A program made the position numbers and the translations under genes. Below the pieces are notes generated by a model, which was not told where the DNA came from, did no database searches, and saw only the letters and a list, made by a program, of their open reading frames with translations. DNA of 63,763 bases, the filler included, from Licmophora abbreviata (taxonomy: Eukaryota), in NCBI GenBank assembly GCA_900291995.1. It is 12 parts of 12 records of this genome, joined end to end, with 100 filler letters (N's around TTAATTAATTAA, not from the genome) between each part and the next. Parts side by side here need not be neighbours in the genome. Positions count along the whole stretch, not along the records: positions 32,631 to 49,183 come from OLMU01003094.1; 11 more parts are not named here. One strand, 5' to 3'. This document shows, piece after piece, positions 7,216 to 49,183 of the stretch. Position 1 is the first letter of the stretch; every line of letters begins with the position of its first letter.

Positions 7216-7400
7216 TTCCTCTGTAGACTCGATGGCGATGCTTCGGAACTTTCTTAGACACCTCACAACACTGAAAAGGCTCCAATGCGTGAGCTACTGT
7301 CTCCCATCATGCTTATTGTTGCTGTGCGCTGCGTGCTGCGGGACGATTTGAGATTTGGGATGATCATTCGAGCTTTGAGCTCCTATACCGTGCGTGCGTG

Positions 7401-7500
7401 NNNNNNNNNNNNNNNNNNNNNNNNNNNNNNNNNNNNNNNNNNNNTTAATTAATTAANNNNNNNNNNNNNNNNNNNNNNNNNNNNNNNNNNNNNNNNNNNN
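7401..7500. other. Assembly spacer N44-TTAATTAATTAA-N44
   Basis: Identical 100-nt linker with stops in all six frames. Confidence 0.98.
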
Positions 7501-8199
7501 GTTGACGGTACGGCAAGATGAAGGCATGGTACTGTACCAGCTAGTCGATCCTCGAGCCTCGAGGTGATGAAAGCTGATGTCTTGCTGTGATGGTTGTTGT
7601 GTCGTCGGTCGTCGGTGTCGTCGTCAACGTGGAGCTTTGAGCTTTCGCGGTGGACTGAGTTGTATGTGGTGGTGGCCTGTCCGTCGTAGAACGACATCTA
7701 ACTGTGATTAAATGTGCTATTCAGCTACGCTTACACAATAATAATAAAGTAATATTCCGAATTGACAAATAATTTCATAAACAATGCATTTATCTCCGTG
7801 CAGTAATCTTGAGAGCACGTTTCAATCTACTGAATGATCCAGACCACTCTGGCGAATTGAAGTCTTATGAACTTTATTTATCTCTGTATGCATAATAAAA
7901 TTTTTGGCCGTGGCACTTTCGACCAGCCACGAGCAAGTCGACCACAGCGGTGCAACGCATGCACCTCCTTGGCGATTCCAAGCGTACCGCACAAGAAAGC
8001 AAAGCGCTTTAGGGGCGAAACAAAGGGAAGCAGCGCTTATTTTCTTGAGCAATTGAGTTCAAAAAGCTACTGTACGAACTTGTAAAGGAGACGTGACGAG
8101 AAAGAGCGGGTATCGATGCCAGGTTTCGTTTTCAGTTTCGTGTGAGGTGACTGACAAGACGATTCCAATTTTGTAGCACCGCTCGCTTTGCCCCCAAGA

Positions 8200-32530: not shown

Positions 32531-32630
32531 NNNNNNNNNNNNNNNNNNNNNNNNNNNNNNNNNNNNNNNNNNNNTTAATTAATTAANNNNNNNNNNNNNN
32601 NNNNNNNNNNNNNNNNNNNNNNNNNNNNNN
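32531..32630. other. Assembly spacer N44-TTAATTAATTAA-N44
   Basis: Identical 100-nt linker. Confidence 0.98.
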
Positions 32631-33989: not shown

Positions 33990-34180
33990 CCAACTAAGGT
34001 GCAAACAAGCAATGCGTCAAAACGATATGTGCCGTAGTAGGCTTGGGTTGACTGTCAAACATAGAAAGCTCGACACGTATCGGGACATTGCAGTGACAGA
34101 TTGTGATATGCTCTACTCCTACACATACGTTGGAACATAAAACCCCGAACTAATCTTTTACAGCACTGGCCGTCGCGTGG

Positions 34181-37100
34181 TCACTCTAAACCGAATCCTT
34201 CGCATTCTAGAATAGCTCGACCAAGAAGCCGCGAGAGTTTGTCGAAATCGGCACCGTAATCGGGTAGAAGTAGTGTATTGAAGCACGTGTGCGAAGTGGG
34301 AAGTTGTGGCGAGTCTGCACCTGCCCGTTGGATCTTGAAGGGCAGTTCGCCTAGGCCCCCAATTGGGGCTTGACTACTGCCTGTGGCAAACTTTAGGAAT
34401 TTGATCTGGCTCTCCGGGGAAGATTCCTTGACAAAGCGCCAAAAGTTACGAATCACCTCTGAATCTTTATCGTATCCACCTTCGTACTCGGCGTTAGACT
34501 CGAGCGCATCGAAGTCCAATTCTGGCGTGCCGACCACGAGAAGTTCGAGCTCGTCAGGCTGGAAGAGATTGAGACTGGCGTTTTCCATTACTCGTCGGAT
34601 CCCACTTTCGAAGGCATCCCATTGCGGCTGAATACTGTCGACGAGGAGCCACTTGACGTACAGCAGCACGTACTCTTCCCGATTGTCGCTCGTCACTGGA
34701 ATGTCAGAGCCACCAGGCTTTAGCTCAATCTTCTGCTCCTGACCAAGATTCGACCACGTTACTTCGAAATTGAGACAGAAAATGTACTCTACGTCGTCAG
34801 ATTCATAGTCGAGGAGTTGCTTCAAGCCTTTCTTGAGTTCTTCGTCCACCAAGTCCTCCAGACCGAGAGGCAAACCCAGAAGCTTCCGAAAGACTGCCGT
34901 AGGAAAGTGAACGTCAAGGAGCACACCATTGTACAACGCCAACCCCACAAGCACGCCGCACAGCTCAAAGTTTTCATTGTCCCAAGTACAGTCCGAATTG
35001 AACCACGTGACATCAGATCCAAAACGACTAGACCACATGCCCGAGGTCACGTCAAAGAGAGCTTCGCTCAAAAGCTGAAAGAACTCTTTCGTGACGCCAC
35101 CGGCATCAATCCCCTCCTCGCCCTTAAACACAACTCGCAGCTTCTTCCGCAGCTCGTCGGGCTTTGCTTTCTTGACTTTCTCCAACGCCTGGTGCAAGAT
35201 GTGCTCACGCTCAATCTCCAGCACAAAGAAAGGATCGACGGTGTACGTCCCTTCGTCAGCGTTGAAGGTCACATCCTGCGTCACCACTTTGATCATCTCA
35301 ACTTGGTTCTCAATTTGCAGCAAATTCCGCTTAGCCCCCGGAGACAGGAGAAAAGGATTAGCACAGAGGAAGAATCGTGTCGCGCGTTGGGCCTTGTTTG
35401 CGTTCTTGAGTCGCGCCAAGTCGTCGTATAGGGCTTCGGCGGGAATTTTGTCAACACTTTCACTATAGAAATCGTTTGGTGATGCCAGATCGCTTACTCG
35501 TTCAGATGCCGAATGCAGCCAACGCAAGACGGCCACAATAACAGGAGTGGCACGCCGTGAAAGATGATTGTGCTGGACTCCGTTTTCGTCAACATCGAAC
35601 CGTAGACCGTTATCAAGCTGTGTGAGCAGCGGGCGAACGAGCATCCGGACAAAGAGTTCTCTGGAATAGATTGATGTTGCCCATGTAAGCAAGGCCTTAT
35701 ACCCTTCAAAAGGAAGACTGAGAATCGTTTCGCAGAGAGCAGTAATACCGTCACCAAGACGATCAAACATGACGTCCGTCCCAGCCATATTGCGATCGAA
35801 AAATTTTAGGTACAAAAGCAAACATCGGACAGTTTCGGGGTATATCATTCGCGCATTATCTGGGCGAATTTTTCCAAGTCCGGTCCTAATCCCATTCTCG
35901 ATTGCCGTGGCGATCGATTGTTGGAATTTAGGATTGCCGATGGAAATAAGCTTCGAATACATTTGATCCAGCTCAGCCGGATCCATAAAGAGACTGTTCA
36001 GGGCCGCCGGGCAGCTCAATAACTCTTCGGTTCTATTCGCGAGCTCCTTGCCAGCAGGACTAACATCAAGTGCACCGTCTGTCCCTTCTTTCTCTTCCAC
36101 CGTTTCCAGTAGTCCTTCCATACTCTCTGCGATTAAGCTGCCTGCGATGGCCTCGCTTTCGAGAGTCACAGAAAAATTACGGCGAAGGGCGCCAATGCCT
36201 GCGGGAGCGACAGCAATGCTCTCCTGACCGCCAGCAGCGATCGTTAACACTGTTTTGCCACTCAGAACCTGCTCTGGACCTGTCATCTTGTTTCGGCCCA
36301 TCTGCCAAACACCACCGATGTCGTCCAGGAGCAAAGTATGACCATCTCCCGCTTCTGCCGTCACGAATCGTCGACCAGCGCTAACTTCCGGATGGTCGAC
36401 AGGCTCGACACTTGTCGCAGGATCTTTAGATGTTAGGCCAAGTTGCCCTTCTTCGTTGTTCCCACAGCATAACAGCCGACCCGATCGAGTGACGAGCACA
36501 GTGTGCTGGTCTCCGCAAGCCGCATGTACGATAGCAACATCGTCCGCTAAAGACACGCCGTCTCCATCCCACACTGCCCAGTTCACAAACGGTTTCGGGC
36601 CATCCTTCGCAGCACGCGCACTGTCGGGCATATGAATCGGCACTGGCAACGTGACGGATTCAGGATAGGGTCTTCCGCAGCACCCCGAACGATTGTCACC
36701 CCAACCAAAGGCGGTCCCGTGAATCGTCAAGACGATCGCATGTCGATTTCCAGCAGAAACACCAACGAGCGGAAGGCCCTCGACAGCAGGGATGGGCGAG
36801 GGCACGTGATGATTGTCTTCCTTGTGATAGCCAGCAATGTCCGGTGCACCACAAGCTAGCAGCGACATGCGCGTAGTGAGGACCAGCGTGAAGCCGTGCC
36901 CACAAGCGACTGCGGACGCGTGACGGCCGCCGCCGAGCAGCATTCCTTGAGGACGACAGAACGAGGCTGACGTGTGAGCAGACTGGCCTGGAGGGCGACG
37001 GCCAAGCTGACCTTCTTTGTTGCTGCCCCATGTCAAAACAGAACCGTTGCTGGACAACGCCGCCGTATGATCAAAACCGCAGCTCACTTGCACAACACGT

Positions 37101-38173
37101 GTCTGTCCGATCGACTCCAACAATGCCGGCCTGCGAATGATTTCCTCGTCTCGACGGTCGGGATCAACAGCGCCCTCTCGATTGAGACCGCAGACGTATA
37201 CCTGCCCTCGCGTTGTAGCGCATGCCGTATGGCCTTGGCTGGTAGCGACGGACAATATGGCAGGGGCGCCAGGGCGACCAATCCGAGATTCCTTGCTTAC
37301 AAGGGCTTCTTCGACAGTCTTGTCTTCAGCGTCATCGTGCAGCGACTGAACACCGGATCCCCATGAAAAGACAAGAGAAGCGCTACTACTCTCGGGGAGC
37401 CGCAGCGATCCAGAAAGAGACCCCGACGAAACGAACAACTCCTGGTGCTTCGACAAGAGCATGGACCGCTCGGGCGTGTCCAGGCTCATGATCTCGTCCT
37501 CCGCCTCCTCATGTGTTCTAGTTTCCACGACGGGCGACAAGAGACCAGCCCCATTCTCATGTAAGTCCAGATCTACCTGAAAGCCTTCCGCTTGATCTGC
37601 TCTCAAGCGACTCGCCACCAACGCGCTGGGCCGACGTGCCTGACGTGCGTACTGTGCTCGACGATCTTTCCCTGCCGCCGTGACCTCTCCTGCCCCAGTG
37701 GCATCGCCCTGAGCCTCGGCTTCTCCTCTGCCTTCTCCTTCCGTCTCTCCTATTTTCTCCAAAGATGCACCAAGACTGCCATGTGACAGTGAAGACAAGA
37801 GTCGTTCGCGAGTACTCTGGCGCTGACGCTGCAAACTATCCGATCCACGCACCAGGCCAAGAGGAATCCGCGACGAATGAGCCAATTCAGCGGTTCGAAG
37901 ACGCTCGGACAGCTGCGACAAGGACTGATCGCGGCTTTCATCTCCGCACTGCGACAAGGCTGTATCGAGATGAGAGTGAATGTCTCCCAGGGCCGACTGG
38001 ATCGAATTGAAGGCAGCTCTTCCAACGCTGGCACGGCGCTGTCTCGTCCGTGGCGACGCTTCCAGGCCCCGTTCGACCTGAGCGAGCTGTTCATCGATAG
38101 TGCGCAAGTCCTCCTCGGCCGACGAGGGCCGTTCTACTTCGGGATCTTCCATGCTTCCGCTGGTGCTGCTCAT
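34181..38173 (-). CDS. HERC-type E3 ubiquitin ligase (RCC1-like repeats + HECT)
   Basis: RCC1 repeats (VSCGFDHT, WGSNKEGQLG, ACGDQHT) and HECT motifs FKGEEGIDAGGVTKEFF and LPTSHTCFNTLLLPDY, ending GFGLE. Confidence 0.95.
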   Translation of the reverse strand: MSSTSGSMEDPEVERPSSAEEDLRTIDEQLAQVERGLEASPRTRQRRASVGRAAFNSIQSALGDIHSHLDTALSQCGDESRDQSLSQLSERLRTAELAHSSRIPLGLVRGSDSLQRQRQSTRERLLSSLSHGSLGASLEKIGETEGEGRGEAEAQGDATGAGEVTAAGKDRRAQYARQARRPSALVASRLRADQAEGFQVDLDLHENGAGLLSPVVETRTHEEAEDEIMSLDTPERSMLLSKHQELFVSSGSLSGSLRLPESSSASLVFSWGSGVQSLHDDAEDKTVEEALVSKESRIGRPGAPAILSVATSQGHTACATTRGQVYVCGLNREGAVDPDRRDEEIIRRPALLESIGQTRVVQVSCGFDHTAALSSNGSVLTWGSNKEGQLGRRPPGQSAHTSASFCRPQGMLLGGGRHASAVACGHGFTLVLTTRMSLLACGAPDIAGYHKEDNHHVPSPIPAVEGLPLVGVSAGNRHAIVLTIHGTAFGWGDNRSGCCGRPYPESVTLPVPIHMPDSARAAKDGPKPFVNWAVWDGDGVSLADDVAIVHAACGDQHTVLVTRSGRLLCCGNNEEGQLGLTSKDPATSVEPVDHPEVSAGRRFVTAEAGDGHTLLLDDIGGVWQMGRNKMTGPEQVLSGKTVLTIAAGGQESIAVAPAGIGALRRNFSVTLESEAIAGSLIAESMEGLLETVEEKEGTDGALDVSPAGKELANRTEELLSCPAALNSLFMDPAELDQMYSKLISIGNPKFQQSIATAIENGIRTGLGKIRPDNARMIYPETVRCLLLYLKFFDRNMAGTDVMFDRLGDGITALCETILSLPFEGYKALLTWATSIYSRELFVRMLVRPLLTQLDNGLRFDVDENGVQHNHLSRRATPVIVAVLRWLHSASERVSDLASPNDFYSESVDKIPAEALYDDLARLKNANKAQRATRFFLCANPFLLSPGAKRNLLQIENQVEMIKVVTQDVTFNADEGTYTVDPFFVLEIEREHILHQALEKVKKAKPDELRKKLRVVFKGEEGIDAGGVTKEFFQLLSEALFDVTSGMWSSRFGSDVTWFNSDCTWDNENFELCGVLVGLALYNGVLLDVHFPTAVFRKLLGLPLGLEDLVDEELKKGLKQLLDYESDDVEYIFCLNFEVTWSNLGQEQKIELKPGGSDIPVTSDNREEYVLLYVKWLLVDSIQPQWDAFESGIRRVMENASLNLFQPDELELLVVGTPELDFDALESNAEYEGGYDKDSEVIRNFWRFVKESSPESQIKFLKFATGSSQAPIGGLGELPFKIQRAGADSPQLPTSHTCFNTLLLPDYGADFDKLSRLLGRAILECEGFGLE

Positions 38174-38477
38174 GGCTCCTGGCCATCGACGAATGATGTC
38201 GCGAACTAAACGTCAATTCGGAAAAAAAGATTGGAAGAACCTCTCCTTTTGCTCTGGTGCTTGGAGTTCGGCAAGAGAGAAGAGTGTTCGCGCTCTTTCT
38301 GCGAGCTCTCCAGTCGAATCCGGGATCGGGCCGGGCCAGCGCGTCGCGCGCAAAACTTGAGAAAGCACCGGCGTGTCTAGAGTACCGATCTCCATTTTTC
38401 TCTTGTTCGAAGATACCAGTCTTGGTGTACCATATCATAGACCATAGGTCCGCGTCTAGGTTCCCACAGAATAGAGC

Positions 38478-40489
38478 ATGTTTGCCGTAGCAGCCTTCCT
38501 CCTGGGGTCGGCCGTCACGGTCGCGGCGTCGCGCTACTGGAGCCGAAAGCAGTCGGACGAGGCGACAGAAGAAGCTAGCATCGCTCCAAGATCCATGCTC
38601 CGTGGAGTAGGCGGAGGACTGGTGCAGTCGTCGTATGCTGTCGCGACGACTGCAGAAGAGAACGTTGGCTTTTTCAGCGACATGATTCGAGAACTGTGGA
38701 CCTATATCAATATGGCGGGCTCTCAGACCATCCGAGAGTCCCTAGAGCCCATGTTTGAGAACATGAGTCCCAAGATTCGCATCACGAAACTCGATCTTGG
38801 CACGGTTCCGATCCGGCTCGACAACATTGTCATACACAAGATCAAGGACGGCTGTGTCAGAATGGAAGTCGACGTGATCTGGGACGGTGACTGTGATATA
38901 GAAATGAAGGCGAACATTATTTCCTTCGGAGTCGAGTCTGTCAAGCTCAGTGGACGAATGAGCGTCCTGTACAAACCCCTTACGAACAAACTACCGATCG
39001 TTGGCGCCGTACAGTATTCCTTCGTCAATCCTCCCTCCTTGACACTCGACTTTACTGGTCTTGCAGCTGTCGCCGAGTTCAGCGTCCTCGAGAACAAGGT
39101 CAAGAACACCATCAAGGACAGCTTGTCCAGTATGGTGCTACCCAACCGAATGATGTACAAGATGGACGAGAAGCTCAAGCTCTTTGATGTTTACGAGCCT
39201 CCGCTTGGTATCGCTCGCGTCACATTGGTCAAGGGTGATGGTTATGTCGTGGAACAGAGGTCTCTTAGGAAGAACGACATACCAGACGTGTACTGCAACA
39301 TTACTGTCGGCAACAGTCGAGCGTGGAAAACGTCGGTTGTCAAGAATAGTTTGGCGCCCGAATGGAATGAATCGGCTGACTTTTTGCTGTCGGATCAAGA
39401 CCAAGTGATTGAAATACATGCATGGGATGAAGATCTAGGATCGCTGGATGCTGACGATGATTTGGGTGTGGCCAAGGTCAGCGTGGGCGAGGTGCTCCTA
39501 GCGGGAAGGACCAAGCGTGTGGAACTGCAGCAGGCGAATAGGGGAACTGGCGCGTTCGTCACTCTTCAGTGTGAAATCCTGGAACTGACGACCGACACGC
39601 AGGACTTGCAGCTGTCCCCAAAGAAAAACCCATCGATGAGAACGCATTCTACGGGATTATGACGATTCTTGTCCAGGGCGCCTACGATTTGCCTCTCAAG
39701 AAAGCGACGGCGGCTTCCTTCGTCAAGGTGACTTGCGGTGGACGAGAGTTCCTGACGAGTACCGTCACAGACAATCCTGGAGTCGACGCTCTCAACCCTG
39801 TGTTTGAGAGTCCCTTTGTTGTCCCTCTTGACCACGCCTTGGTGGGGAACGACGTGGTGCTGGATCTCATCAACGGCAAAGGCACTCTTCTCGGTACGAC
39901 GACGGTGACCTATGCTTCCTTGTTGAAGGTGCAAGGCAAGTCAATCCAGGAGAAACGAAAGATCGGCAACCGCGGAGCATCCGTAGAATTTTGCGTCTCT
40001 GTACGTGGCCTCGCACTGTCGGCTGCTACCACTCCACCGGCGACTTCTTCTCAGAATGCCATGGCTCCCTCGTCACCAGAGATGTCGGGCGTTGAGGCTG
40101 GTGGTCACGGCACAGTCCGTGTCACGGCCGTCAAGGGCCGCGGCTTTCCTATTCAACGTAAACGATTCAAGAAAAATGACATTCCCGACGTCTATTGCAA
40201 TATTACCTTTGGCTCGAGCCCCACAGTTTGGAGGACTTCTACAATCAAGAACAACACCGAGCCCCAATGGAATGAATCCATGGACTACACGTTGCTGCAC
40301 CACAGCCAGATCATTCAGATCGGTACATTCGATGAAGACAAAGGAAGTAGCGACCCGGACGATGACTTGGGAAGCGGTAGAGTGGCCGTCGGTAAGGTGC
40401 TCTTGGCAGGCGGAAGCCTCGAAGTGGAGCTTCAACGAAGCGGAAAGCCCACTGGAGGGTTCGTCACGCTCCGCTGCGATATGGTTTAG
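38478..40489 (+). CDS. Extended synaptotagmin/tricalbin-like protein (TM-SMP-C2-C2-C2), with an apparent 1-nt frameshift
   Basis: N-terminal anchor, SMP domain (LWTYI...KLDLGTVP...FVNPP.L.LDFTG) and C2 domains DIPDVYC...WNES...DED...DDDLG (twice). The frame changes between 39575 and 39659. Confidence 0.88.
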
Positions 40490-40564
40490 TAGATACTTGA
40501 AAGAGTGGTTGCTTAGTTTCCCCATGGTGATTCATTCTAGCAAGCAGTGCTCTCTAGCGGTTAG

Positions 40565-42805
40565 CTAGTATGTTCGACGACGATTGTCTCGATGACCTCC
40601 GCTATTCTGTCGCCGGCGCTCGTCGTCACCTCCGCGTCGTTCCCCACGCTGTTGAGGTGGAGGGCCACGTCCAGGAGCATTGGGCTGCTCTACGGGTCTT
40701 CGTGCAGGCTCAAAGTTCGGTCGCCGCCTGCCTCTTCCTGCTCCACCCCCTCGACCTCTGCCTCCGCCTCGAAAGTCGCCCCCTGGAGCGGTTCGGGGAC
40801 GAGGCTCCTCTCCTCGTCGACGCTTACTCGGGTGGTCTCCGCCTCTCGGAGCTGATTCCGGCGAATTGCTTGCAGCCCGCTTCCGCTTAGAACTAGCCGT
40901 ACTGGCTGCTTGAGATTTCTCCGTCGGCTTGGACGGATCCTTCTTTGAAGAGCCAGCCTCCTTTTTGGCAGGTTCAGCCTTGGCTTCCCCTTCATTATCG
41001 TCCTCCGAACCATGAAGCTCTTCCTCCTCCTCGACCACAGTCTTTTCAAACTCGTTCACTTTTTCGTCCCCGTCCTCGGCTGAACTCGGGCTTGGCACTT
41101 CATCTTCCTCCTCTTCGGACGCAACACCCCCAACAGAGGCATTCGACTCGTCTTGGTCGTTCATTTCGACGTCGCCCTCTTTCTTGGGATTCTCCGCGCC
41201 AGCATTCTTTGCGGCCGTATCCACGTCGTAATCGACGATTACCTCCTCCCCTGGCGCTTCTCCCGGAACCTCTGCCTTTTTCTCTTGCTCGTATATGTGG
41301 CGAACCATTTGCTCAAAGTCACCATTGCTTTTCTGGACCATGCCAAACATGGGCAAGTGGCCGCGACTCAACAATCTCATGGCTCTCCATGAAAAAAGCT
41401 TATCGTTCTTGGGGTGATACTCTTCCTCAATACCGGCATCCGGATCAAGTGCGTCGACGTAGTCCTCCAAGAACGTATAGACGTCGGGCACCGCCTCACG
41501 CATGCCTTTGGAAATTACCGCCAGCTCGTCCATGGAAAGAGGCTTGTCGTGAAAGAGAGTGTCGGGCGTCGCGGTTTTGCTTCCAAGAGGTTCATCTAGA
41601 GATGTCCTCTTCCCTTTTTCTGCCATTTTGTCATTTTCCTCTACATGCATTTCCATGTCGGGCTTACACTTGTTCTTTTTCCAATTTCGCCACATGGACT
41701 CGCGCTCCGATAGCAACCAGTGCAGAGTTTGCAAATGCTCTTTGCCACCGCTGCTGCTTTCCAACAGCGCCTTGGCGCGCGTCGTCAGATCTCGTAGCGT
41801 CGATTGTAGCTGGCTTGACTGCGACGAGACAAACGCTTCGACAATGAGATACTGCGTCAAAATGTGCCGACAAAACATGGGATCCTGCAGTTGAATCGGT
41901 AACAAGCGACCGCGCGTCAAGTACTCCAGCGTCGAAGTTGGCAAGAGAGGATCCGAAACACCACTACCGCCACTACGACTTTTGGAAAGAATCGACTGGC
42001 TTTCCAGTGTGGCGAGAATGGTGCGCATATTGGGGAGAAAGGTCGTAAAGGAAATGGCGTAGGGATTGGAGAAGTCCTTTTGGACACTCCAAAACGTCTC
42101 GTAGAGCGAGTACTGAAAGTGCGGCTCGACACTATCCTTCAGCGGTGTAGGAATTTCTGGCATACTGATTGAAGTTTGTTGGAGTTCTTCGTCGTAATCG
42201 TCTTCGTCCTGATAGTATGAATCACCGGTGCCGTCATGCGGATGCGACGATACACTGCCCCACTGTTTGAGACTGGATCGATCGTGGAGTGGCAAGACTT
42301 GAGCGAGATCCATCAAGATTCGCCCTGCGGTAGACGGATTCGGCGTAGCGAAGGAAAGCTTACGGAGCAATGAATTGCAACAGCGGATCCATTGCAGCAC
42401 GTGACTGCTGGTGGTCGTCGTGTTCCAGAGTATACCGCTACATAGAGTAGAGGTATCCACAGTGGCGTCCCAAAATTCGAGCAGTTTTGTCAAGAGCAAG
42501 ACGTCGACAGCATCTTCCAGTAAAATAAATGGCAGCTTTCGTAGGTAGACACCGAGCTTGTCTTCGTTGGACTCCACAGCAGCGATGCAAAACTTCCAGA
42601 ACGACGTGAACAAAGTCTGAAGCTGGTCGGTGCTGGAGTCAGCGAGACACTCGAGCCAATGTGAGCGAATCTTCGCTTCCAGAGAGTCGTAGGCGCCCGA
42701 CGGCGATTCCGATGAGTCATTCAAGAGTGTCTGTGCATACTCTTGAATAGATTCGGGCAATCTGTCCATGGAAAAGGCGGAGGAAGTTTCCGTAGCAGTC
42801 GCCAT
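40565..42805 (-). CDS. THOC1: THO complex subunit 1 (Hpr1)
   Basis: LYETFWSVQKDFSNP, YLTRGRLLPIQLQDPMFCRHILTQYLI, RESMWRNWKKNKC and DPDAGIEEEYHPKNDKLFSWRAMRLL, with an RGG-rich tail. The start codon is uncertain (upstream in-frame ATGs exist). Confidence 0.88.
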   Translation of the reverse strand: MATATETSSAFSMDRLPESIQEYAQTLLNDSSESPSGAYDSLEAKIRSHWLECLADSSTDQLQTLFTSFWKFCIAAVESNEDKLGVYLRKLPFILLEDAVDVLLLTKLLEFWDATVDTSTLCSGILWNTTTTSSHVLQWIRCCNSLLRKLSFATPNPSTAGRILMDLAQVLPLHDRSSLKQWGSVSSHPHDGTGDSYYQDEDDYDEELQQTSISMPEIPTPLKDSVEPHFQYSLYETFWSVQKDFSNPYAISFTTFLPNMRTILATLESQSILSKSRSGGSGVSDPLLPTSTLEYLTRGRLLPIQLQDPMFCRHILTQYLIVEAFVSSQSSQLQSTLRDLTTRAKALLESSSGGKEHLQTLHWLLSERESMWRNWKKNKCKPDMEMHVEENDKMAEKGKRTSLDEPLGSKTATPDTLFHDKPLSMDELAVISKGMREAVPDVYTFLEDYVDALDPDAGIEEEYHPKNDKLFSWRAMRLLSRGHLPMFGMVQKSNGDFEQMVRHIYEQEKKAEVPGEAPGEEVIVDYDVDTAAKNAGAENPKKEGDVEMNDQDESNASVGGVASEEEEDEVPSPSSAEDGDEKVNEFEKTVVEEEEELHGSEDDNEGEAKAEPAKKEAGSSKKDPSKPTEKSQAASTASSKRKRAASNSPESAPRGGDHPSKRRRGEEPRPRTAPGGDFRGGGRGRGGGAGRGRRRPNFEPARRPVEQPNAPGRGPPPQQRGERRGGDDERRRQNSGGHRDNRRRTY

Positions 42806-43069
42806 GGTCCAGCGGTGGACGGCGAGAGACTTCGGATTGAGATTTTCATTTTGGAGCGTTGTCTGTGACATTAACTTTCCGGGTTCCATCTCGTGTTGAA
42901 GTGGACTGATGACGAGCGATCGCGCGCGCACGACTTTTTACCCCCGCGACCACACTGCTATGATACACGATGAAGGGAAGAGCCGTTGTATCGTCGTCTT
43001 GAAAGCTCTTCTTCCGTTACATCTAGGAATCCCTGTAGAGAGGCCAATCCTGTGATTCCCTATTTCGCA

Positions 43070-44365
43070 ATGGCGGACATTAATTCGAGAATCGCAGCTG
43101 CAGAGAATCAGGTAAGATCTACGGAAAAGACATCGCTGTAATGCCAAGACAAGAAAAGGTATCCGTGAATTCGGCGATTGTCGTATCCAAGTCTTGGAAG
43201 TCACCTTTTACTCTCGGACTCGTTTTGGATCCAAAATTACGTCGTTCCTTATCATTTCTGATCGTCAAGAAGAGACAGAGCGATTTCGAAGTCGAATAAA
43301 GCCCCCAAATTGAAAGGAAACTCACCCTTGTTTGCTTTTCACACACAGGTCACTTCGCTCGAGGCGGAACTGACAAGTCTCCAAGCATCTCAGGTGACCC
43401 TTTCTTCCGTTTCTCGAGGAACACCGCTATCTTCTACCCGCAGCCCCCCTGCCACGAAGCTTCGTCGCACCTTGAAAGGACACTTTGGTAAGGTCGTGGA
43501 CTTGCACTGGGCGGGGGACGGTACATCGCTCGTGAGTGCCTCCCAGGATGGTAAGCTCCTCCTGTGGAACGCCGTCACTACGTCAAAAAAGAAGGCAGTA
43601 TCGCTGAAATCCAATTATGTCATGGCCGTTGGAATGGAACAAACGCAGAGCAACCTTGTCGCCTGCGGCGGACTGGACAATCTCTGTACGGTCTACAAAT
43701 GGAGTGCTCCCGATACTGCTCTACTCGAAATGGCATCGCATGATGGATATGTCAGCTGCTGTCGTTTCAGGAGTACTTCGCAGGTGCTTACGTCGAGCGG
43801 AGATGGATCCATCATTCAGTGGGACCTGAACAGCGGCCGCGTCATGGATGTTTTGGAAGAGCATAAACAGGATGTCATGCGTCTCAGTATCAGTCCGACT
43901 AGTCCCAATACAGTTGTCTCTTGCAGCGTCGACAGGTCGGCCAAGGTGTGGGATTTGAGGAGTCCCAAGGCGAGTGTCCAGACCTTTGTTGGCCATCAAG
44001 GAGACATTGATGGCGTCGAGTTCATGTCGAACGGACTGTGTTTTGGAACGGCCAGTGAGGACGGAACATCCCGCGTGTACGACTTGCGATCGTACCGCCA
44101 GGTGGCTCAGTTTGGAACGCTGGTGGCGCCGACAGTCGACGCCACCAATCATGGACTGACCTCTGTGACGTTCAGTGGCAGTGGGCGTATTCTGTTTGCG
44201 GGACATGCCGACGGCCATGTCTTGGCGTGGGATGTGTTGAAAGGTAGTGGGGCGCCAACGTTTACGTTGCCTCATGAGTCGCACGTTTCGTGTGTCGGAG
44301 TCAATCCCAAAGGAGATGCACTTTGCACCGGTTCATGGGATTCGGCCTTGAAGATTTGGGCATGA
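43070..44365 (+). CDS. GNB: Heterotrimeric G-protein beta subunit, 2 exons
   Basis: Exon 1 at 43070-43111 (MADINSRIAAAENQ), intron 43112-43348, then RRTLKGH, SASQDGKL, ACGGLDN, HDGYVSCCRF, LTSSGD and TGSWDSALKIWA. Confidence 0.92.
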
Positions 44366-44509
44366 GTAGTGGCACTTGAGATTATCAGGAGAAAAGCAGA
44401 GAGAGAGAGAGAGTGCTATGGTTGTACGTAAAAAAACAATAGTGACGTCGTTTTAAGAATGATTGTCAAGAAACGACCCAAGGGCCGACCTGATTCTCAT
44501 GATATCATA

Positions 44510-45271
44510 CTACAGTGCGCCGTGGGCAATGTATATTTCAATGTTGTAGGCCGGATCGCTCAACACTCGTTCGACCTGTCCTATATGCGGCGAGCCTCGC
44601 AATCGTTGTAGAAACTTGTCAACTCCATCCGCGTTGCGCCGTTCGACACTCGTCAGCATCAACGTCTTGGGATTTTCTCGCAGGACTTCCTCCATGACTT
44701 CGACAAGCAGCATCCAACTGGTTCCGTAAAGAGGTTCGTAAACGCAATCGCAGTTGAGAACAATGTCAAACTGATGATGAGGCTCGTATTCCTTCAATAG
44801 CTGCTCTATGCCAGGTTTGGACCACGAGAGGGGTCTTGCCAGTATTGACGATTCATGAGTTTCGGCAAAATTATGTCGCAAGTTTCGTTCAAGCTGCGAC
44901 AAGATGCTCTGCTGGTCCGTGAGGCACACCTGCGAGTGATACAAAGCATGCAGAATCATGCCAGGTACCCCCAGGCCGCATCCGAGTTCCAGGATTCGAC
45001 AACCGTCCTTGTTGTCCAGTACTGCGCCGTGGTGCTTTACTAGGTAGTCCACTGCGGCAATGGCTGCATGCCACACTCTTGTACCTGCCCACTGGGCGCC
45101 TGCAAACAAGGGGGCAATGTCGTCCGGTTCCAGTAACGTGGATAAATGAAGGGGAGATCTCATTCCGGAATGCCATTGGACGGAAACGGCTTGTTCGAGT
45201 CCGTCGTCGTTTCGAATGCTTTGAAACTGGATTTTTGACATGTACGGATCCTCTTCAGGGTTACTGCTCAT
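44510..45271 (-). CDS. METTL21-like (family 16) SAM-dependent protein-lysine methyltransferase
   Basis: GTRVWHAA, ILELGCGLGVPG, LTDQ, LSW and DIVLNCDCVY (DxxY). Confidence 0.88.
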   Translation of the reverse strand: MSSNPEEDPYMSKIQFQSIRNDDGLEQAVSVQWHSGMRSPLHLSTLLEPDDIAPLFAGAQWAGTRVWHAAIAAVDYLVKHHGAVLDNKDGCRILELGCGLGVPGMILHALYHSQVCLTDQQSILSQLERNLRHNFAETHESSILARPLSWSKPGIEQLLKEYEPHHQFDIVLNCDCVYEPLYGTSWMLLVEVMEEVLRENPKTLMLTSVERRNADGVDKFLQRLRGSPHIGQVERVLSDPAYNIEIYIAHGAL

Positions 45272-45560
45272 CCTGGAACGTTCTAGTTCTCAACACGCAG
45301 CGAGAGGATGACTCTGCCCTGGTGCTTGCTTCGTTCACTCCAGTCTGAGTATTTCAAGGCGTGTGATGCGTTTGTTCGATGGTCGAATTGCGCTTCATGT
45401 TGGAGAGGGGTATGATACCAGGTACCATGACGACAGCATGACGTAGTACGTGCGACACGAAACGAGACAGAAAAGCTGTGAAAGATATCGAAGTCACTTT
45501 TGACATCAGTCCACCATGATGTGTGTGCCGTTTGGCTTTTGAACAGCATCTCCATCCACC

Positions 45561-48500
45561 ATGTCTTCTTCTTGGTACGCTTCTTCACCGGATGCTATTG
45601 ACTGCTTGTGTCTAGGAACCGGTCGCTTTCTCCGGTCAGTGCTGGTGCCCGCGTTGGTCGGCGCTGGGCTGCATCCTGGACTCATTCAGACTCGAGGCCG
45701 GTCCATGCTAGAGTATATGCTGGAGAAGCAGAATTCTAGCTACGAAATCGACACAGTGTTGCCGTCGGGCGATGTGGAAACGACTCAAGTTCCCATTCAC
45801 GGCGCCTTCACTCTGGGATCGACAGAAGGAAAGCAAGCCGTCTTGCAGGATCTTTTACCGAAACTCAGGAAACTGACTGTTCTTGGAGTCGGGGTGACGG
45901 AAGCTGGGCTCTCGTCGCATGAAACACAGGTCATGAAGGATCTGTATGAACTCTTGCAGCATTTAGCACGCCACCCCTCCCTGCTTGTGGACACTCCCAA
46001 CCGCAAACTCTGTGTTTTGGACATGGACAATGTCCCCAACAATGGTGCCGTGATTCGGAAACACATGCTCGCACAAGCCGCAGAAAGTCCCGACGTTCTG
46101 GACTTTATGCGGACCAGGGTCGTCTTTCTGGATACCATGGTGGATCGTATCACCTCCCAGCGCGACGGGAGTCACGGGATGGTGCCTCGTTGTGAGCCAG
46201 TTCCGCGAAAAGCGCTGGTCGTCTTGGACTCTCACGGCGACTTGCCTCCACCCATGACTCAGCTGGACGTTTCGAAGTTTGGCTTGGTTGTCCGAAGTAC
46301 GTCTCAACAACTGCAGGGGGACCTTGCGTTGAAACTAAGAGTGGCGAACGGCACTCATACGGCCATTGCGCATTCACTTGCACTCTGCAAACTGCTCATG
46401 ACGGACACGCTCGCGTCCACAGGTGCCGCCTTGTGGACGACGTATTTGGACGCCTTGTTTCATCAGGATATTCTCCACGGGGCTGAAGAAGCTTATGGGA
46501 GAGATGAAACGATTGCAGCCTATGAGGATTGGAGGGGACGGCTGTGCCATGCGCATTTTGGTTTGTCTTCCTTTTTCATCACACAGAACGGCGCCGCCAA
46601 GGGAGGAATTCGACTAGGACCGACCGTTGTGAGCTTACTGCGGGATAAGAAGTCTATCTCGGTTTCAATGGCCTATGCCTTTGCGGCATTGTTGAGGTGG
46701 CTGACGCCGGTCTCTACTACGAGTCCTCGCGCGGGAGTATATCGAGGGTGGCTGGACCAGTGCGATCGGTCCAAGGCGGCCGTGTCAGCGACTGACGGAG
46801 AGCGCTACGCTGATGGACTGCACTATGACTTGGACGAGGGGTGGTACGAGTTCAAATGTGCATGTTTCGTGAGTAGGTCTGGCTTCAGCCCTAAGCGGCC
46901 ATTGTCAGAGTGGCTTGGAGATTCGATGGCGACGCCGCAACAGCCACATGCGTGTGTTGCTGCCGTTCGTGCCTATCTGTTGGCCGATGATGGCGGCAAT
47001 TTGAGTTCAGTAGCTCTACTTGAAGAGTTTGATGTTTTTGTGAATGCTGTTGCTACCGTGTACGCCCGTTTGGTGGCAGGGGACGGGATGATCACTCTCT
47101 TGGAAGAAATGAACTCGGATGCGGTCGTCTTTGGTAATGGCCTCAAGACAGACTGCCGTGTTCTGGTTGACACTCCGTCGCTCAAGCACGGACGGCCATT
47201 GCCGTACCGGTCGCACTCGATTCCAGATAAGAGTCAGTTGATGCAAGCGACCGTCAACGGTAACACGATTGCATCAGTGGTGACCTCCGAAGTGGCGTCG
47301 GTTTTGGCGATTGACCTTCACACACACCTTTTGCCTCCGTCGCACGGCACGTTGTGCTGCTGGGGAATCGACGAACTTTTGACCTACGTAAGTCATGGTC
47401 GGTACCGATTGTACAACCATCTTCGACGACGCACTCGCGTCGATCTAACGTTATTTGCCTGCGGTTCACTTCTTTCACAGCATTATCTAGTTGCTGAGTA
47501 TTTTATGACGGCTCCCCCGTCCATGTCGCCGGAACTATTCTATGAGATGAACAAACGAGAGCAGGCTAATGTTATTTGGAAAGCCTTGTTCGTTGACCGA
47601 TCTCCTATTTCTGAAGCATGCCGTGGAGTTCTTACTACACTCCAGGCGCTGGGCTTAGGAGAAGCGGTGGATCTACGAGACTTGGAGGCTGCCCGTGCGT
47701 ACTATAGGACGTTCCGCGAACGTGGTTTGGAGGGAGCCGAGGACTTCAGCAAAGTGGTCTATGAGAAGGCTGGTGTGCGGTATGCTATCATGACAAATAT
47801 TCCGTTTGACGTCAACGAAGCCTCTCAATGGCGCCCTCAATGCAAGGAGTATCCTGAGCAATATAGATCCGCGCTTCGGGTTGATCCGCTCTTGGCTGGA
47901 GATGATCGCACTGTGGAGAAAGCACTCCGGTCATCTGGGTACCCCAGTACACTGGAGGGAGCCCGTCAGTACCTACGAGAGTGGTGCGATACTATGCAGC
48001 CGGAGTACATGATGGCCTCTACGCCTCATGATTTTGTATTTTCTGAAGGTCAACTTGCCGGGATTGCGAAGAAAGGAGTCAACGATGATGCTATGGCGCA
48101 ACCGTTTGCGTTCGTCGATGCCGTAAAGGCTAAGGATGACTGCGGAGTGGGCTGTGACGGAGAGGACGATGCTACGGCGAGCGTGATTAACGAAAACAGC
48201 GACTTCCTAAGCGAGGTTTTGATGAAAGTTTGCGAAGAGCGTAATCTTCCTGTTGCTCTCAAGATTGGGGCTCATCGAGGCGTGAATCCGCGACTAAAGA
48301 CAGCTGGAGATGGCGTTGTGGCCTTTGCCGATGCAGGTATTTTGGGCCGTCTGTGTGCCCGCTTCCCAAAGGTTCGGTTTCTGGCGACGTTCCTCTCTCG
48401 AAACAACCAGCACGAGGCATGCATCATGGCGTCCAAGTTTTCCAACTTGCATATCTATGGGTGTTGGTGGTTCTGCAACAATCCCAGTATGATCAAAGAA

Positions 48501-48746
48501 ATTACGCAGATGAGAGTCGAAATGCTGGGGACAGCCTTTACGGCCCAGCATAGCGATGCACGAGTTCTCGACCAATTGATCTACAAATGGTCCCACTCAC
48601 GCGCCGTTATTGCAGGCGTGCTGGCGCAGGAATACACTAAGCTTGCGGAATCGGGTTGGTCCTTTACCAGAGCCGAACTCCGCCGTGACGTACACCGTCT
48701 CTTCGGCGGTAGTTATGAAGAGTTTATGGCGAAGTCCTTCATCTGA
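45561..48746 (+). CDS. Fusion of a mannitol-dehydrogenase-family (UxaB/UxuB-like) oxidoreductase and a BH0493-type uronate isomerase, about 1030 aa after splicing
   Basis: N-half: LGTGRFLR, VTEAG, DNVPNNG, TMVDRIT, KLRVANGTHT. C-half: DLHTHL, IDELLTY|HYLVAE, RSPISEACRGV, GCWWFCNNP, QHSDARVLDQLIYKW. In-frame intron at 47388-47480. Confidence 0.85.
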   Translation: MSSSWYASSPDAIDCLCLGTGRFLRSVLVPALVGAGLHPGLIQTRGRSMLEYMLEKQNSSYEIDTVLPSGDVETTQVPIHGAFTLGSTEGKQAVLQDLLPKLRKLTVLGVGVTEAGLSSHETQVMKDLYELLQHLARHPSLLVDTPNRKLCVLDMDNVPNNGAVIRKHMLAQAAESPDVLDFMRTRVVFLDTMVDRITSQRDGSHGMVPRCEPVPRKALVVLDSHGDLPPPMTQLDVSKFGLVVRSTSQQLQGDLALKLRVANGTHTAIAHSLALCKLLMTDTLASTGAALWTTYLDALFHQDILHGAEEAYGRDETIAAYEDWRGRLCHAHFGLSSFFITQNGAAKGGIRLGPTVVSLLRDKKSISVSMAYAFAALLRWLTPVSTTSPRAGVYRGWLDQCDRSKAAVSATDGERYADGLHYDLDEGWYEFKCACFVSRSGFSPKRPLSEWLGDSMATPQQPHACVAAVRAYLLADDGGNLSSVALLEEFDVFVNAVATVYARLVAGDGMITLLEEMNSDAVVFGNGLKTDCRVLVDTPSLKHGRPLPYRSHSIPDKSQLMQATVNGNTIASVVTSEVASVLAIDLHTHLLPPSHGTLCCWGIDELLTYVSHGRYRLYNHLRRRTRVDLTLFACGSLLSQHYLVAEYFMTAPPSMSPELFYEMNKREQANVIWKALFVDRSPISEACRGVLTTLQALGLGEAVDLRDLEAARAYYRTFRERGLEGAEDFSKVVYEKAGVRYAIMTNIPFDVNEASQWRPQCKEYPEQYRSALRVDPLLAGDDRTVEKALRSSGYPSTLEGARQYLREWCDTMQPEYMMASTPHDFVFSEGQLAGIAKKGVNDDAMAQPFAFVDAVKAKDDCGVGCDGEDDATASVINENSDFLSEVLMKVCEERNLPVALKIGAHRGVNPRLKTAGDGVVAFADAGILGRLCARFPKVRFLATFLSRNNQHEACIMASKFSNLHIYGCWWFCNNPSMIKEITQMRVEMLGTAFTAQHSDARVLDQLIYKWSHSRAVIAGVLAQEYTKLAESGWSFTRAELRRDVHRLFGGSYEEFMAKSFI

Positions 48747-49183
48747 TAAAGACGCGTACGTCGCTGGAACCCTGACATTGCAACTCCTTCCGATCTGAGC
48801 GATCATGCGTTTGAATGCTGCTCTAAGGGATAGGCGACATATCGCCTGTGCAACAAATGAGTTGAACATTGGAGCAGGACTTACAACAAATGAATCCCTG
48901 CTGTTGTCGTCTTCTTTGTCGACGTCGTCGTGGCGGCCCAAGCGCAGATCATGCGTAGTAAAACTCTGCGTCACAAACTGAAGTCAAATTTTCGGCCATT
49001 CGCTCCTTGCTGGAGGTGTGTAGGCACTGTAGATGACAGCATCTCCCATTAAAACTGGTACCGGTACTTGAAGTCCTACGGCATGTTACGCCCACGAGCA
49101 TCATCCCGCCTGCATTGCATTCACGTTTCCCAAAGTGAATATCTGGAGGTGGAGGTGGTCAATGAACATATATCAGATTAGAC

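What the first reader, a model, noticed from the sequence alone, without database searches (positions are those of the whole stretch)
45561..48746. Eukaryotic bifunctional hexuronate enzyme: UxaB/UxuB-like reductase fused to a BH0493-type uronate isomerase
Seen: one ORF carries both domains. A GTAAGT...CAG intron (47388-47480) splits IDELLTY|HYLVAE, so this is an integrated nuclear gene rather than a bacterial contaminant. Established: uronate isomerase (UxaC) and tagaturonate/fructuronate reductase (UxaB/UxuB, mannitol dehydrogenase family) catalyse steps 1 and 2 of the bacterial isomerase (Ashwell) pathway and are normally separate genes. Fungi and animals use reductive routes instead. The C-half motifs match my recollection of the divergent Bacillus halodurans BH0493 subfamily. 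Inference: this alga may catabolise glucuronate or galacturonate (from its own wall/EPS or from inositol oxidation) by a bacterial-type, possibly channelled route feeding Entner-Doudoroff metabolism, perhaps acquired by HGT. I cannot tell whether the fusion has been described before.
Basis: partly seen in the sequence, partly recalled or inferred. Interest (0 to 1): 0.78.

Follow-up and report, generated by a model that had tools for sequence, protein, structure and literature searches.

The report
Diatom fused uronate isomerase–reductase gene
A diatom-type nuclear gene fuses a sugar-acid reductase to a bacterial-type uronate isomerase; it looks functional and is conserved across stramenopiles, but the same fusion was already pointed out in Phytophthora in 2008 and no activity has been shown for it.

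Summary
One open frame (ATG 45561, TGA 48744-48746) encodes an N-terminal mannitol-dehydrogenase-family reductase and a C-terminal BH0493-type uronate isomerase (PDB match E 3e-91). The 93-nt GTAAGT...CAG intron at 47388-47480 lies exactly where the BH0493 alignment breaks (TY|HY). It is absent from 10 of 11 orthologues. Another diatom-like sequence has an intron at the same site, with in-frame stops.

The gene sits on a 16.6-kb contig with typical eukaryotic genes. All recalled catalytic and metal-binding residues of both halves are conserved.

The fusion is not new. Full-length orthologues occur in diatoms, eustigmatophytes, xanthophytes, oomycetes, a dinoflagellate and a malawimonad. A 2012 review credits Nguyen et al. 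2008 with noting the Phytophthora sojae composite.

Still open:
- The reductase half's substrate. It is a long-branch clade in which every named member is eukaryotic. It is nearest to UxaB by HMM (27 bits against a cut-off of 359), but pairwise BLAST slightly favours UxuB.
- The downstream enzymes, because no genome is held for this window.
- Transcription in this organism.

Verdict: a real gene and a new member of a known but uncharacterised fusion family. It most likely performs steps 1 and 2 of an Ashwell-type hexuronate pathway. Moderate interest.

The parts
45561..47387 (+). Exon 1, codons 1-609: the whole reductase half, a linker, and the first ~40 residues of the isomerase half including the HxH metal ligands
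   Evidence: Open frame and ATG. The N-terminus aligns with the Met of 11 orthologues.
47388..47480 (+). Intron, 93 nt, phase 0: GTAAGT...CTAAC...pyrimidine-rich tract...CAG. It is in frame and stop-free.
   Evidence: The alignment to BH0493 breaks here. The insert is absent from 10 of 11 orthologues. L002 has an intron with stops at the same site. The signal pattern alone is not significant.
47481..48746 (+). Exon 2, 421 codons plus the TGA stop: the rest of the isomerase half
45561..47240 (+). Reductase half (residues ~1-560): long-chain mannitol-dehydrogenase family, eukaryote-type subfamily
   Evidence: PF01232 35.6 bits. A profile of the orthologues hits sorbitol and mannitol dehydrogenases and YdfI in PDB at E 1e-11 to 1e-13. 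In the tree it forms a clade at 100/100.
45615..45635 (+). GxGRFLR dinucleotide-binding motif (G19, G21, R22, F23, L24, R25)
   Evidence: Invariant in 12 of 12 aligned sequences. The role is inferred from knowledge of the family.
46332..46358 (+). K258-x4-N263-x2-H266, the catalytic Lys/Asn/His motif of the mannitol dehydrogenase family
   Evidence: Invariant in 12 of 12. It aligns to KLRLLNGSH of 7rk4 and KIRMLNAGH of 5itg. N157 and D195 align to N191 and D230 of 1lj8. The roles are recalled.
47265..48743 (+). Isomerase half (residues ~569-1061 of the read-through, intron included): BH0493-type uronate isomerase, amidohydrolase superfamily
   Evidence: phmmer E 2.9e-91; profile E 1e-137
47319..47327 (+). 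H587-T-H589, equivalent to BH0493 His26/His28 (metal ligands)
   Evidence: Alignment and numbering counted on 2q08_A. Invariant in 12 of 12. The role is recalled from Nguyen et al. 2009, which I did not read here.
47877..47879 (+). R773, equivalent to BH0493 Arg170
   Evidence: alignment (ALRVDP / ALRLDP); invariant
48549..48563 (+). H997-S-D999-A-R1001, equivalent to BH0493 HSDAR with Asp355 and Arg357
   Evidence: alignment. H997, S998, D999 and R1001 are invariant.
48054..48203 (+). Acidic, Cys-containing insertion of about 50 residues (832-881), seen only in the diatom sequences; function unknown
   Evidence: It has no counterpart in BH0493. It is present in all 8 diatom rows, reduced in Nannochloropsis, and absent from the Chrysoparadoxa and oomycete rows.

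Best explanation
This is a single nuclear gene of a diatom-type stramenopile with two exons. It encodes a cytosolic protein of about 1030 aa with two enzyme halves.

The C-terminal half is a BH0493-type, metal-dependent (beta/alpha)8 uronate isomerase. It would convert D-glucuronate or D-galacturonate to the keto-uronates D-fructuronate or D-tagaturonate.

The N-terminal half is an NAD(P)H-dependent reductase of the long-chain mannitol-dehydrogenase family. It would reduce that keto-uronate to D-mannonate or D-altronate.

Together these are steps 1 and 2 of the Ashwell (isomerase) hexuronate pathway on one polypeptide. Fusion fixes a 1:1 stoichiometry and lets the reduction pull the isomerisation forward.

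Shown here: the gene structure, both family assignments, conservation of the catalytic residues, wide conservation of the fusion, and fused transcripts in other diatoms. Inferred: the substrates, the cofactor, the direction of flux, the cytosolic location (the Rossmann motif starts at residue ~17, leaving no room for a presequence), and any coupling between the two sites.
For: - Continuous frame with no stop between the halves.
- BH0493 match at E 2.9e-91 over the whole isomerase, with H26, H28, H49, Y50, R170, D355 and R357 all conserved. These positions are invariant in 12 of 12 fused orthologues.
- PF01232 above its cut-off.
- In the reductase half, K-x4-N-x2-H, the N191 and D230 equivalents, and GxGRFLR are invariant in 12 of 12.
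- 120 listed full-length or partial orthologues with the same domain order. All named ones are eukaryotes, and MMETSP transcript ORFs of 1096-1120 aa span both halves. The fusion also occurs in Cladocopium and Gefionella.
- Among characterised subfamilies, the tagaturonate reductase HMM is the best hit for 12 of 12 orthologues, best E 2.7e-20.
- In 2 of 79 bacterial loci the BH0493-type gene sits in a uxaB-uxaA operon, with eda also present in L003. This shows that this isomerase type works with an MDH-family tagaturonate reductase.
- The fusion was used in print as a functional link for Bh0493 (PMC4017328, passages read).
Against: - The reductase half is far below every curated subfamily cut-off: 27.3 bits against 359 for UxaB.
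- Its link to UxaB in the tree is weak (86/57) and flagged as a long-branch join. Pairwise BLAST scores E. coli UxuB (32.3 bits) above UxaB (25.0 bits). The substrate is therefore not determined.
- Mannitol_dh_C (PF08125) is not detected in this protein.
- 77 of 79 bacterial loci have no MDH-family gene within the flanks. 5 of 5 Planctomycetota MAGs holding the nearest bacterial isomerases have no PF01232 hit at all, although the MAGs may be incomplete.
- Diatoms also keep unfused paralogues of the reductase, so the reductase need not depend on the isomerase.
- Downstream dehydratase, KDG kinase and KDPG aldolase could not be sought in this organism.
- There is no transcript evidence for this organism itself.
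Confidence: 0.7

Rival explanations
1. The isomerase half is a true uronate isomerase, but the reductase half acts on another substrate or in another role. Examples are a polyol or other keto-sugar acid, or flux in the oxidative or biosynthetic direction. In that case the fusion is not simply 'UxaC+UxaB'.
For: - The N-half forms a long-branch clade of its own, 100/100 with branch length 4.36, in which all named members are eukaryotes.
- It scores far below the UxaB, UxuB and DalD cut-offs.
- Pairwise BLAST and the HMMs disagree on the nearest subfamily.
- Standalone paralogues exist in diatoms.
- Sources name the oomycete orthologues 'Mannitol 2-dehydrogenase'.
Against: - Stable fusion to a uronate isomerase in diatoms, other stramenopiles, a dinoflagellate and a malawimonad argues for consecutive reactions.
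- The best HMM for 12 of 12 orthologues is tagaturonate reductase.
- Bacterial uxaB-uxaA-(BH0493-type) operons exist.
Confidence: 0.2
2. One half is catalytically inactive, so the fusion protein has only one activity or a regulatory or sensing role.
For: PF08125 is not detected in the query. A diatom-only insertion of about 50 residues lies in the isomerase half. In-frame retention of the intron would put 31 residues between Tyr609 and His641, the equivalents of BH0493 Tyr48 and His49.
Against: All recalled catalytic and metal-ligand residues of both halves are invariant in 12 of 12 orthologues. Identity in the C-terminal segment 883-1058 is high against BH0493.
Confidence: 0.05
3. Artefact: two adjacent genes read through by chance, a mis-assembly, or a bacterial contaminant.
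For: The window is a concatenation of 12 contigs joined by N/TTAATTAATTAA linkers. No RNA holder was found for this organism.
Against: - The gene lies wholly inside one contig (32631-49183) with HECT/RCC1, THO1, G-beta and SMP/C2 genes.
- It has a spliceosomal-type intron at a position conserved in other diatom DNA.
- The collinear fusion occurs in 120 listed relatives, including transcripts.
- Its GC of 0.52-0.54 is like its surroundings.
- No fused form was seen in the 79 bacterial loci.
Confidence: 0.03

Closest known systems
Phytophthora sojae composite protein (gene 347522, GI:348670788): N-terminal mannitol dehydrogenase plus C-terminal Bh0493-like amidohydrolase. Noted by Nguyen et al. 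2008 (Biochemistry 47:1194; not held, not read) as reported in the review PMC4017328.
   Same: Same two families in the same order. Phytophthora orthologues align over 99% of the query at 37% identity. They group with the query in both half-trees.
   Different: This is the diatom orthologue. It has one intron and a diatom-only insertion of about 50 residues in the isomerase half, and Mannitol_dh_C falls below Pfam detection. As far as my library searches show, the composite has only been used as a bioinformatic link and has not been assayed.
Bacillus halodurans BH0493 uronate isomerase (PDB 2Q08, 2QEE, 2PNK, 3HK5-3HKA)
   Same: E 2.9e-91 over the full length. H26, H28, H49, Y50, R170, D355 and R357 are conserved, so the same chemistry is expected.
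   Different: BH0493 is a standalone bacterial enzyme of about 427 aa. Here the enzyme is the C-terminal half of a eukaryotic fusion, interrupted by an intron between the Y48 and H49 equivalents, with an extra loop at 832-881.
E. coli UxaC (canonical glucuronate/galacturonate isomerase; Pfam PF02614, NCBIfam PRK02925)
   Same: Same reaction is expected, and the same superfamily. The only local similarity is around WWF...D.
   Different: No significant sequence match: BLASTP E 0.065. Pfam UxaC gave no hit at E<=1. PRK02925 was hit by 1 of 12 orthologues at E 0.0091.
UxaB tagaturonate reductase and UxuB fructuronate reductase (long-chain mannitol dehydrogenase family; solved relatives 1LJ8, 7RK4, 5ITG, 4IM7)
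   Same: PF01232 Rossmann domain; the DN..NG, MVDRIT and K-x4-N-x2-H motifs. UxaB is the nearest characterised subfamily by HMM.
   Different: 27.3 bits against the UxaB cut-off of 359. It forms a separate long-branch clade, all of whose named members are eukaryotes. It is 22% identical to E. coli UxaB and 28% to UxuB, over only 121-139 aa.
Fungal and animal reductive hexuronate pathways (GaaA-D; glucuronate reductase). Review PMC6353982, passages read.
   Same: A eukaryotic route for the same substrates.
   Different: The first steps are unrelated: reduction of the aldehyde rather than isomerisation. The review describes the isomerase route only under bacterial pathways.

Membership tests
BH0493-type uronate isomerase (amidohydrolase superfamily) | Full-length sequence similarity to BH0493 | tested here: met
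   phmmer E 2.9e-91 in three collinear stretches covering chain residues 10-416. Profile E 1e-137.
BH0493-type uronate isomerase (amidohydrolase superfamily) | HxH metal ligands (His26/His28) and Asp355 | tested here: met
   H587, H589 and D999 align to these residues and are invariant in 12 of 12. The residue roles are recalled, not read here.
BH0493-type uronate isomerase (amidohydrolase superfamily) | Substrate-binding and catalytic residues His49, Tyr50, Arg170, Arg357 | tested here: met
   H641, Y642, R773 and R1001 align to these residues and are invariant. The roles are recalled.
BH0493-type uronate isomerase (amidohydrolase superfamily) | Isomerisation of D-glucuronate or D-galacturonate | not testable with these tools
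   Needs an enzyme assay.
BH0493-type uronate isomerase (amidohydrolase superfamily) | (beta/alpha)8 barrel fold | not tested
   Structure prediction accepted no jobs.
Canonical UxaC (PF02614 / PRK02925) | Match to the family model | tested here: not met
   No Pfam or NCBIfam hit for the query at E<=1. BLASTP against E. coli UxaC gives E 0.065.
Long-chain mannitol dehydrogenase family | N-terminal Rossmann domain PF01232 above the gathering score | tested here: met
   35.6 bits against 27, residues 16-200.
Long-chain mannitol dehydrogenase family | C-terminal helical domain PF08125 | tested here: inconclusive
   Not detected in the query at E<=1. It is precomputed on the Nannochloropsis, Tribonema, Chrysoparadoxa and many oomycete orthologues. 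The orthologue profile aligns through this region to 5itg and 7rk4, up to profile position 386.
Long-chain mannitol dehydrogenase family | Catalytic Lys-x4-Asn-x2-His and the Asn191/Asp230 equivalents | tested here: met
   K258, N263, H266, N157 and D195. The roles are recalled.
Tagaturonate reductase UxaB (NCBIfam NF002969) | Score at or above the curated cut-off (359 bits) | tested here: not met
   27.3 bits for the query. It is the best hit for 12 of 12 orthologues, but the best E is only 2.7e-20. True UxaB proteins of L003 and L072 score 650 and 649 bits.
Fructuronate reductase UxuB (NCBIfam NF011611) | Score at or above the curated cut-off (603 bits) | tested here: not met
   No hit for the query. 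4 of 12 orthologues hit it, best E 0.00018. BLASTP against E. coli UxuB gives 32.3 bits.
Stramenopile-type reductase-isomerase fusion | Collinear full-length alignment to the fused orthologues, reductase N-terminal and isomerase C-terminal | tested here: met
   99-100% query coverage at 37-61% identity to many fused proteins. Alignment A1. The query falls inside the diatom clade in both half-trees.

The most novel reading that the evidence does not exclude
The fusion marks an unrecognised, Ashwell-type isomerase route for hexuronates in eukaryotes. It is present in diatoms and other ochrophytes, oomycetes, at least one dinoflagellate and one malawimonad. Its isomerase half has a single origin next to Planctomycetota-like bacterial enzymes. 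Its reductase half belongs to a mannitol-dehydrogenase subfamily in which every named member is eukaryotic, whose specificity (tagaturonate, fructuronate or both) has never been measured, and which also exists as free paralogues. Reviews of hexuronate catabolism describe the isomerase route only under bacterial pathways.
Probability: 0.45. Interest if true: 0.55.

Novelty: new member of a known kind. Interest (0 to 1): 0.35.

Why it matters
If the protein is active as predicted, diatoms and oomycetes degrade glucuronate or galacturonate by an isomerase route. A 2019 review describes that route only under bacterial pathways and lists one eukaryotic pathway for D-galacturonate (PMC6353982). This bears on three things.
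- How diatoms recycle their own uronic-acid-rich exopolymers.
- How oomycete plant pathogens use pectin.
- Engineering: a natural eukaryotic single-chain 'UxaC+UxaB/UxuB' could help. The same review states that the complete bacterial isomerase pathway has not yet been shown working in yeast.

The gene is also an annotation gap. BH0493-type proteins match no Pfam or NCBIfam family, and the orthologues are named 'hypothetical protein' or 'mannitol 2-dehydrogenase'.

The discovery value is limited because the fusion itself has been in print since 2008.

Tried and rejected
- RNA evidence. The look-up of sequencing runs listed no RNA holder, only one run of guessed kind holding 0.09 of the words. 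Laying it gave two short contigs (46135-46360 and 47143-47299), and neither reaches the intron or the domain junction. This says nothing about expression or splicing.
- Own genome. None is held, so UxaA/UxuA, KdgK and Eda could not be sought.
- Earlier scan notes. None for this genome or sequence.
- Structure prediction. The tool accepted no jobs, so there was no fold test and no view of domain contacts.
- Nguyen et al. 2008. The paper is not held, so I rely on the review's account. Its supplements and text may say more about the fusion.
- tblastn of the N-half against the 80 loci found only L002. I repeated the search with an HMM.
- Search of the genome that holds L002 for UxaA and UxuA. The UxaA hit lies on another contig of what is otherwise a high-GC bacterial bin, and L002 itself is a chimeric contig. 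I rejected it as evidence about diatoms.
- Metagenome scan with P0221. It did not recover that protein's contig, only L083.
- Paper search was badly framed: none of the 15 listed papers contains 'tagaturonate'. It gave nothing.
- The oomycete metabolism preprint 10.1101/2020.02.12.941195 contains none of the uronate terms I searched.
- Splice-signal pattern as a statistical test. Not significant.
- The 'shorter' search with the C-half was saturated by diatom fragments and split gene calls, and never reached bacteria.
Full report
**Observation**

The + strand frame is open from stop to stop over 45543..48746. The first ATG is at 45561 and a TGA lies at 48744-48746. The read-through translation, P0001, has 1061 aa.

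Pfam finds the mannitol dehydrogenase Rossmann domain PF01232 at residues 16-200, at 35.6 bits against a cut-off of 27. It finds no UxaC model.

A phmmer search of PDB gives the Bacillus halodurans BH0493 uronate isomerase (2qee, 2pnk, 2q08 and six further entries) at E 2.9e-91 to 4e-91. The match comes in three collinear stretches that cover essentially the whole enzyme.

The canonical UxaC is not detectably similar. There is no Pfam or NCBIfam hit for the query. BLASTP against E. coli UxaC gives E 0.065.

**The intron**

The BH0493 alignment stops at ...IDELLTY (residue 609) and resumes at HYLVAE (residue 641). The 31 residues between them are nt 47388-47480. This stretch starts GTAAGT, has a CTAAC 35 nt before its end followed by a pyrimidine-rich run, and ends CAG.

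In an alignment with 11 fused orthologues the insert is missing from 10. Three of those are transcript-derived MMETSP ORFs. The eleventh, P0002, is a gene call at 61% identity. It has an insert at the same place that starts VS and ends SQ, as expected for a read-through GTAAGT...CAG.

A diatom-like genomic fragment (L002) has GTAAGT...TAG at the very same codon boundary, 87 nt long with in-frame stops.

The splice-signal pattern alone is not significant: 1 match in the window, and 23 of 100 shuffles gave at least one. The case rests on the homology break and the conserved position.

The intron is a multiple of three and stop-free. By my own arithmetic the chance of that is about 0.08. So the 'one ORF' is the unspliced read-through, and the spliced protein would have 1030 aa.

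**Context**

The window is not one molecule. Eleven N-run/TTAATTAATTAA/N-run linkers join 12 contigs. The gene lies inside one contig, 32631-49183.

That contig also carries a HECT/RCC1 ubiquitin ligase, a THO1 homologue, a G-beta WD40 protein, an SMP/C2 protein and a lysine methyltransferase. GC is 0.52-0.54, like the surroundings. This is a eukaryotic nuclear gene, not a contaminant. None of the linked neighbours belongs to sugar-acid metabolism.

**The isomerase half**

Counting on chain 2q08_A, BH0493 residues map to the query as follows.

| BH0493 residue | Query residue |
|---|---|
| H26 | H587 |
| H28 | H589 |
| H49 | H641 |
| Y50 | Y642 |
| R170 | R773 |
| D355 | D999 |
| R357 | R1001 |

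All are invariant in 12 of 12 fused proteins. Their roles as metal ligands, general base and substrate contacts I recall from Nguyen et al. 2009, which I did not read here.

Residues 832-881 form an acidic, Cys-containing loop. It is shared by the 8 diatom rows and absent from BH0493 and the oomycetes.

**The reductase half**

A profile of the orthologues hits four solved structures.

| PDB entry | Protein | E-value |
|---|---|---|
| 5itg | sorbitol dehydrogenase | 1.3e-13 |
| 7rk4 | mannitol 2-dehydrogenase | 1.3e-13 |
| 1lj8 | mannitol 2-dehydrogenase | 1.2e-11 |
| 4im7 | YdfI | 1.5e-11 |

The family motifs are present and invariant: GxGRFLR, D156-N157..G162, MVDRIT, and K258-x4-N263-x2-H266. 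N157 and D195 align to N191 and D230 of 1lj8.

Subfamily assignment fails.
- The best NCBIfam model is tagaturonate reductase, at 27.3 bits against a cut-off of 359.
- It is the best model for 12 of 12 orthologues, with best E 2.7e-20.
- Genuine bacterial UxaB proteins score about 650 bits.

I built a careful tree of 28 rows. They were 16 fused N-halves, 5 standalone relatives, 3 UxaB, and E. coli UxuB, YdfI, YeiQ and MtlD as outgroup. All eukaryote-type sequences form one clade at 100/100 on a branch of length 4.36. That clade joins UxaB at only 86/57, and the join is flagged as a long-branch join.

Pairwise BLASTP even scores E. coli UxuB higher than UxaB: 32.3 bits and E 3e-5, against 25.0 bits and E 0.006. 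So the half is a mannitol-dehydrogenase-family reductase with intact catalytic residues. Whether it takes tagaturonate, fructuronate or both is open.

**Distribution**

A search restricted to proteins of 583-1857 aa found 185 relatives, and the best 120 were listed. Every named one is a eukaryote.
- Diatoms: Seminavis, Nitzschia, Cyclotella, Epithemia, Amphora, Leptocylindrus and others.
- Other ochrophytes: Nannochloropsis, Tribonema, Chrysoparadoxa.
- Oomycetes: Phytophthora, Bremia, Peronospora, Globisporangium, Lagenidium, Aphanomyces, Thraustotheca.

Cluster look-ups add the dinoflagellate Cladocopium goreaui, the malawimonad Gefionella okellyi and Pythium. The ESM Atlas places the query in a cluster of 78 members, 100% Eukaryota. 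MMETSP ORFs of 1096-1120 aa marked complete show single fused transcripts in other diatoms.

The reductase type also exists unfused.
- L083 carries a diatom-clade N-half that ends in a stop exactly where the isomerase would begin, followed by a gene on the other strand.
- Nitzschia inconspicua and Epithemia each have both a fused and a free copy.
- All named hits of the free form are eukaryotic.

**Bacterial relatives**

Of at least 594 BH0493-type genes in prokaryote genomes, the best 80 loci were fetched. One of them, L002, is a chimeric contig. Its first 4.5 kb are diatom-like (GC 0.49-0.57) and the rest has GC 0.61-0.70. I left it out.

In a quick tree of 101 rows (the query, 21 eukaryotes and 79 bacteria), the 22 eukaryote sequences form one group with SH-aLRT 98. 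Beside them lie 8 Planctomycetota sequences (99), and the diatoms are monophyletic (100). The root is unknown, sampling is biased toward the query, and two rows (L029, L031) are long-branch artefacts. I therefore claim only 'nearest sampled bacteria', not a donor.

Only 2 of the 79 bacterial loci have an MDH-family gene in the flanks (3812 ORFs scanned). In both it is a true UxaB followed by altronate dehydratase, and in L003 also by KDPG aldolase. This comes from one search, which scanned 65 of the 105 ORFs extracted from 12 loci, and.

Five of five Planctomycetota MAGs with the nearest isomerases show no PF01232 gene. These MAGs may be incomplete.

**Mechanism proposed**

The C-terminal barrel binds a divalent metal through H587, H589 and D999. 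It isomerises the aldo-uronate to the 2-keto form. The N-terminal domain then reduces the ketone with NAD(P)H, using K258 as acid/base. This gives mannonate or altronate for dehydration to KDG.

Gene structure, family membership and residue conservation are shown. Substrates, cofactor, localisation and any channelling are inferred.

**Prior knowledge**

The review PMC4017328 (passages read) lists 'Bh0493/mannitol dh' as a fusion case. It states that homologues of Bh0493 are strongly similar to composite proteins such as Phytophthora sojae gene 347522 (GI:348670788). [quoted passage not shown] The review cites Nguyen et al. 2008, which is not held.

My other searches of the held library found no paper that assays the fusion or discusses it in diatoms. 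These searches cover only that library.

A 2019 review of hexuronate catabolism (PMC6353982, passages read) describes the isomerase route under bacterial pathways. [quoted passage not shown]

**Verdict**

The fusion is real, conserved and probably bifunctional. It is a new member of an already noted, still uncharacterised family, which removes most of the claimed novelty. What remains of interest is that a eukaryotic isomerase-type uronate route, and the specificity of its reductase subfamily (all named members eukaryotic), have apparently never been tested.

Noticed in passing
window 7445, 10819, 16040, 21814, 24163, 30359, 32575, 49228, 53878, 58767, 61991: The window is a pseudomolecule. 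Eleven linkers (44 N, TTAATTAATTAA, 44 N) join 12 contigs, so genes on either side of a linker need not be neighbours. The finding's contig is 32631-49183.
   Followed up: yes
L002:1-4500 against 4500-10506 (contig of a MAG titled Ilumatobacteraceae): Chimeric contig. A diatom-like end of about 4.5 kb (GC 0.49-0.57) carries the fused gene, with frame changes that look like indel errors. It is joined to DNA of GC 0.61-0.70. This is contamination or mis-assembly in a public bacterial bin.
   Followed up: partly
L083:14-1468; also P0466 and P0178: Diatoms also have free-standing paralogues of the reductase half. L083 ends in a stop exactly where the isomerase would start. Nitzschia inconspicua and Epithemia have both a fused and a free copy. 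In Epithemia the two locus tags are seven apart (011623 and 011630), on a contig of the same listed length.
   Followed up: partly
window 48054-48203 (residues 832-881): An acidic insertion of about 50 residues with conserved Cys/Gly positions sits in the isomerase half. It is present in all 8 diatom rows and absent from BH0493 and the oomycetes. Its function is unknown.
   Followed up: no
window 47388-47480: The intron is 93 nt, in frame and stop-free. Retention would insert 31 residues between Tyr609 and His641, the equivalents of BH0493 Tyr48 and His49. The closest relative, P0002, also reads through an insert at this site.
   Followed up: partly
G001-G005 (genomes of L007, L013, L027, L044, L058): Five of five Planctomycetota MAGs that hold the bacterial isomerases nearest to the eukaryote clade show no Mannitol_dh-family gene. 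Their BH0493-type enzyme must work with another kind of reductase or in another pathway, unless the MAGs are incomplete.
   Followed up: partly
P0081 (Gefionella okellyi), P0402 (Cladocopium goreaui): The fusion is not confined to stramenopiles. A malawimonad transcriptome and a dinoflagellate genome encode it. This implies an old eukaryotic origin, eukaryote-to-eukaryote transfer, or contamination of those data sets.
   Followed up: no
L003:4678-5925, L072:7767-9107 and 9 other bacterial BH0493-type ORFs: BH0493-type isomerases match no Pfam family. The two scanned against NCBIfam match no family there either. Automated annotation therefore leaves them, and the C-half of the fusion, unnamed.
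   Followed up: partly
L038:3985-6531, L071:11796-12770: Some bacterial BH0493-type genes lie near a GH67 alpha-glucuronidase or an acetyl-xylan esterase. This fits a role in glucuronoxylan use.
   Followed up: no
window 32583-33989: A weak GT47 exostosin-like match (31.7 bits, below the cut-off of 33.4) lies at the start of the same contig. No link to the finding is shown.
   Followed up: no
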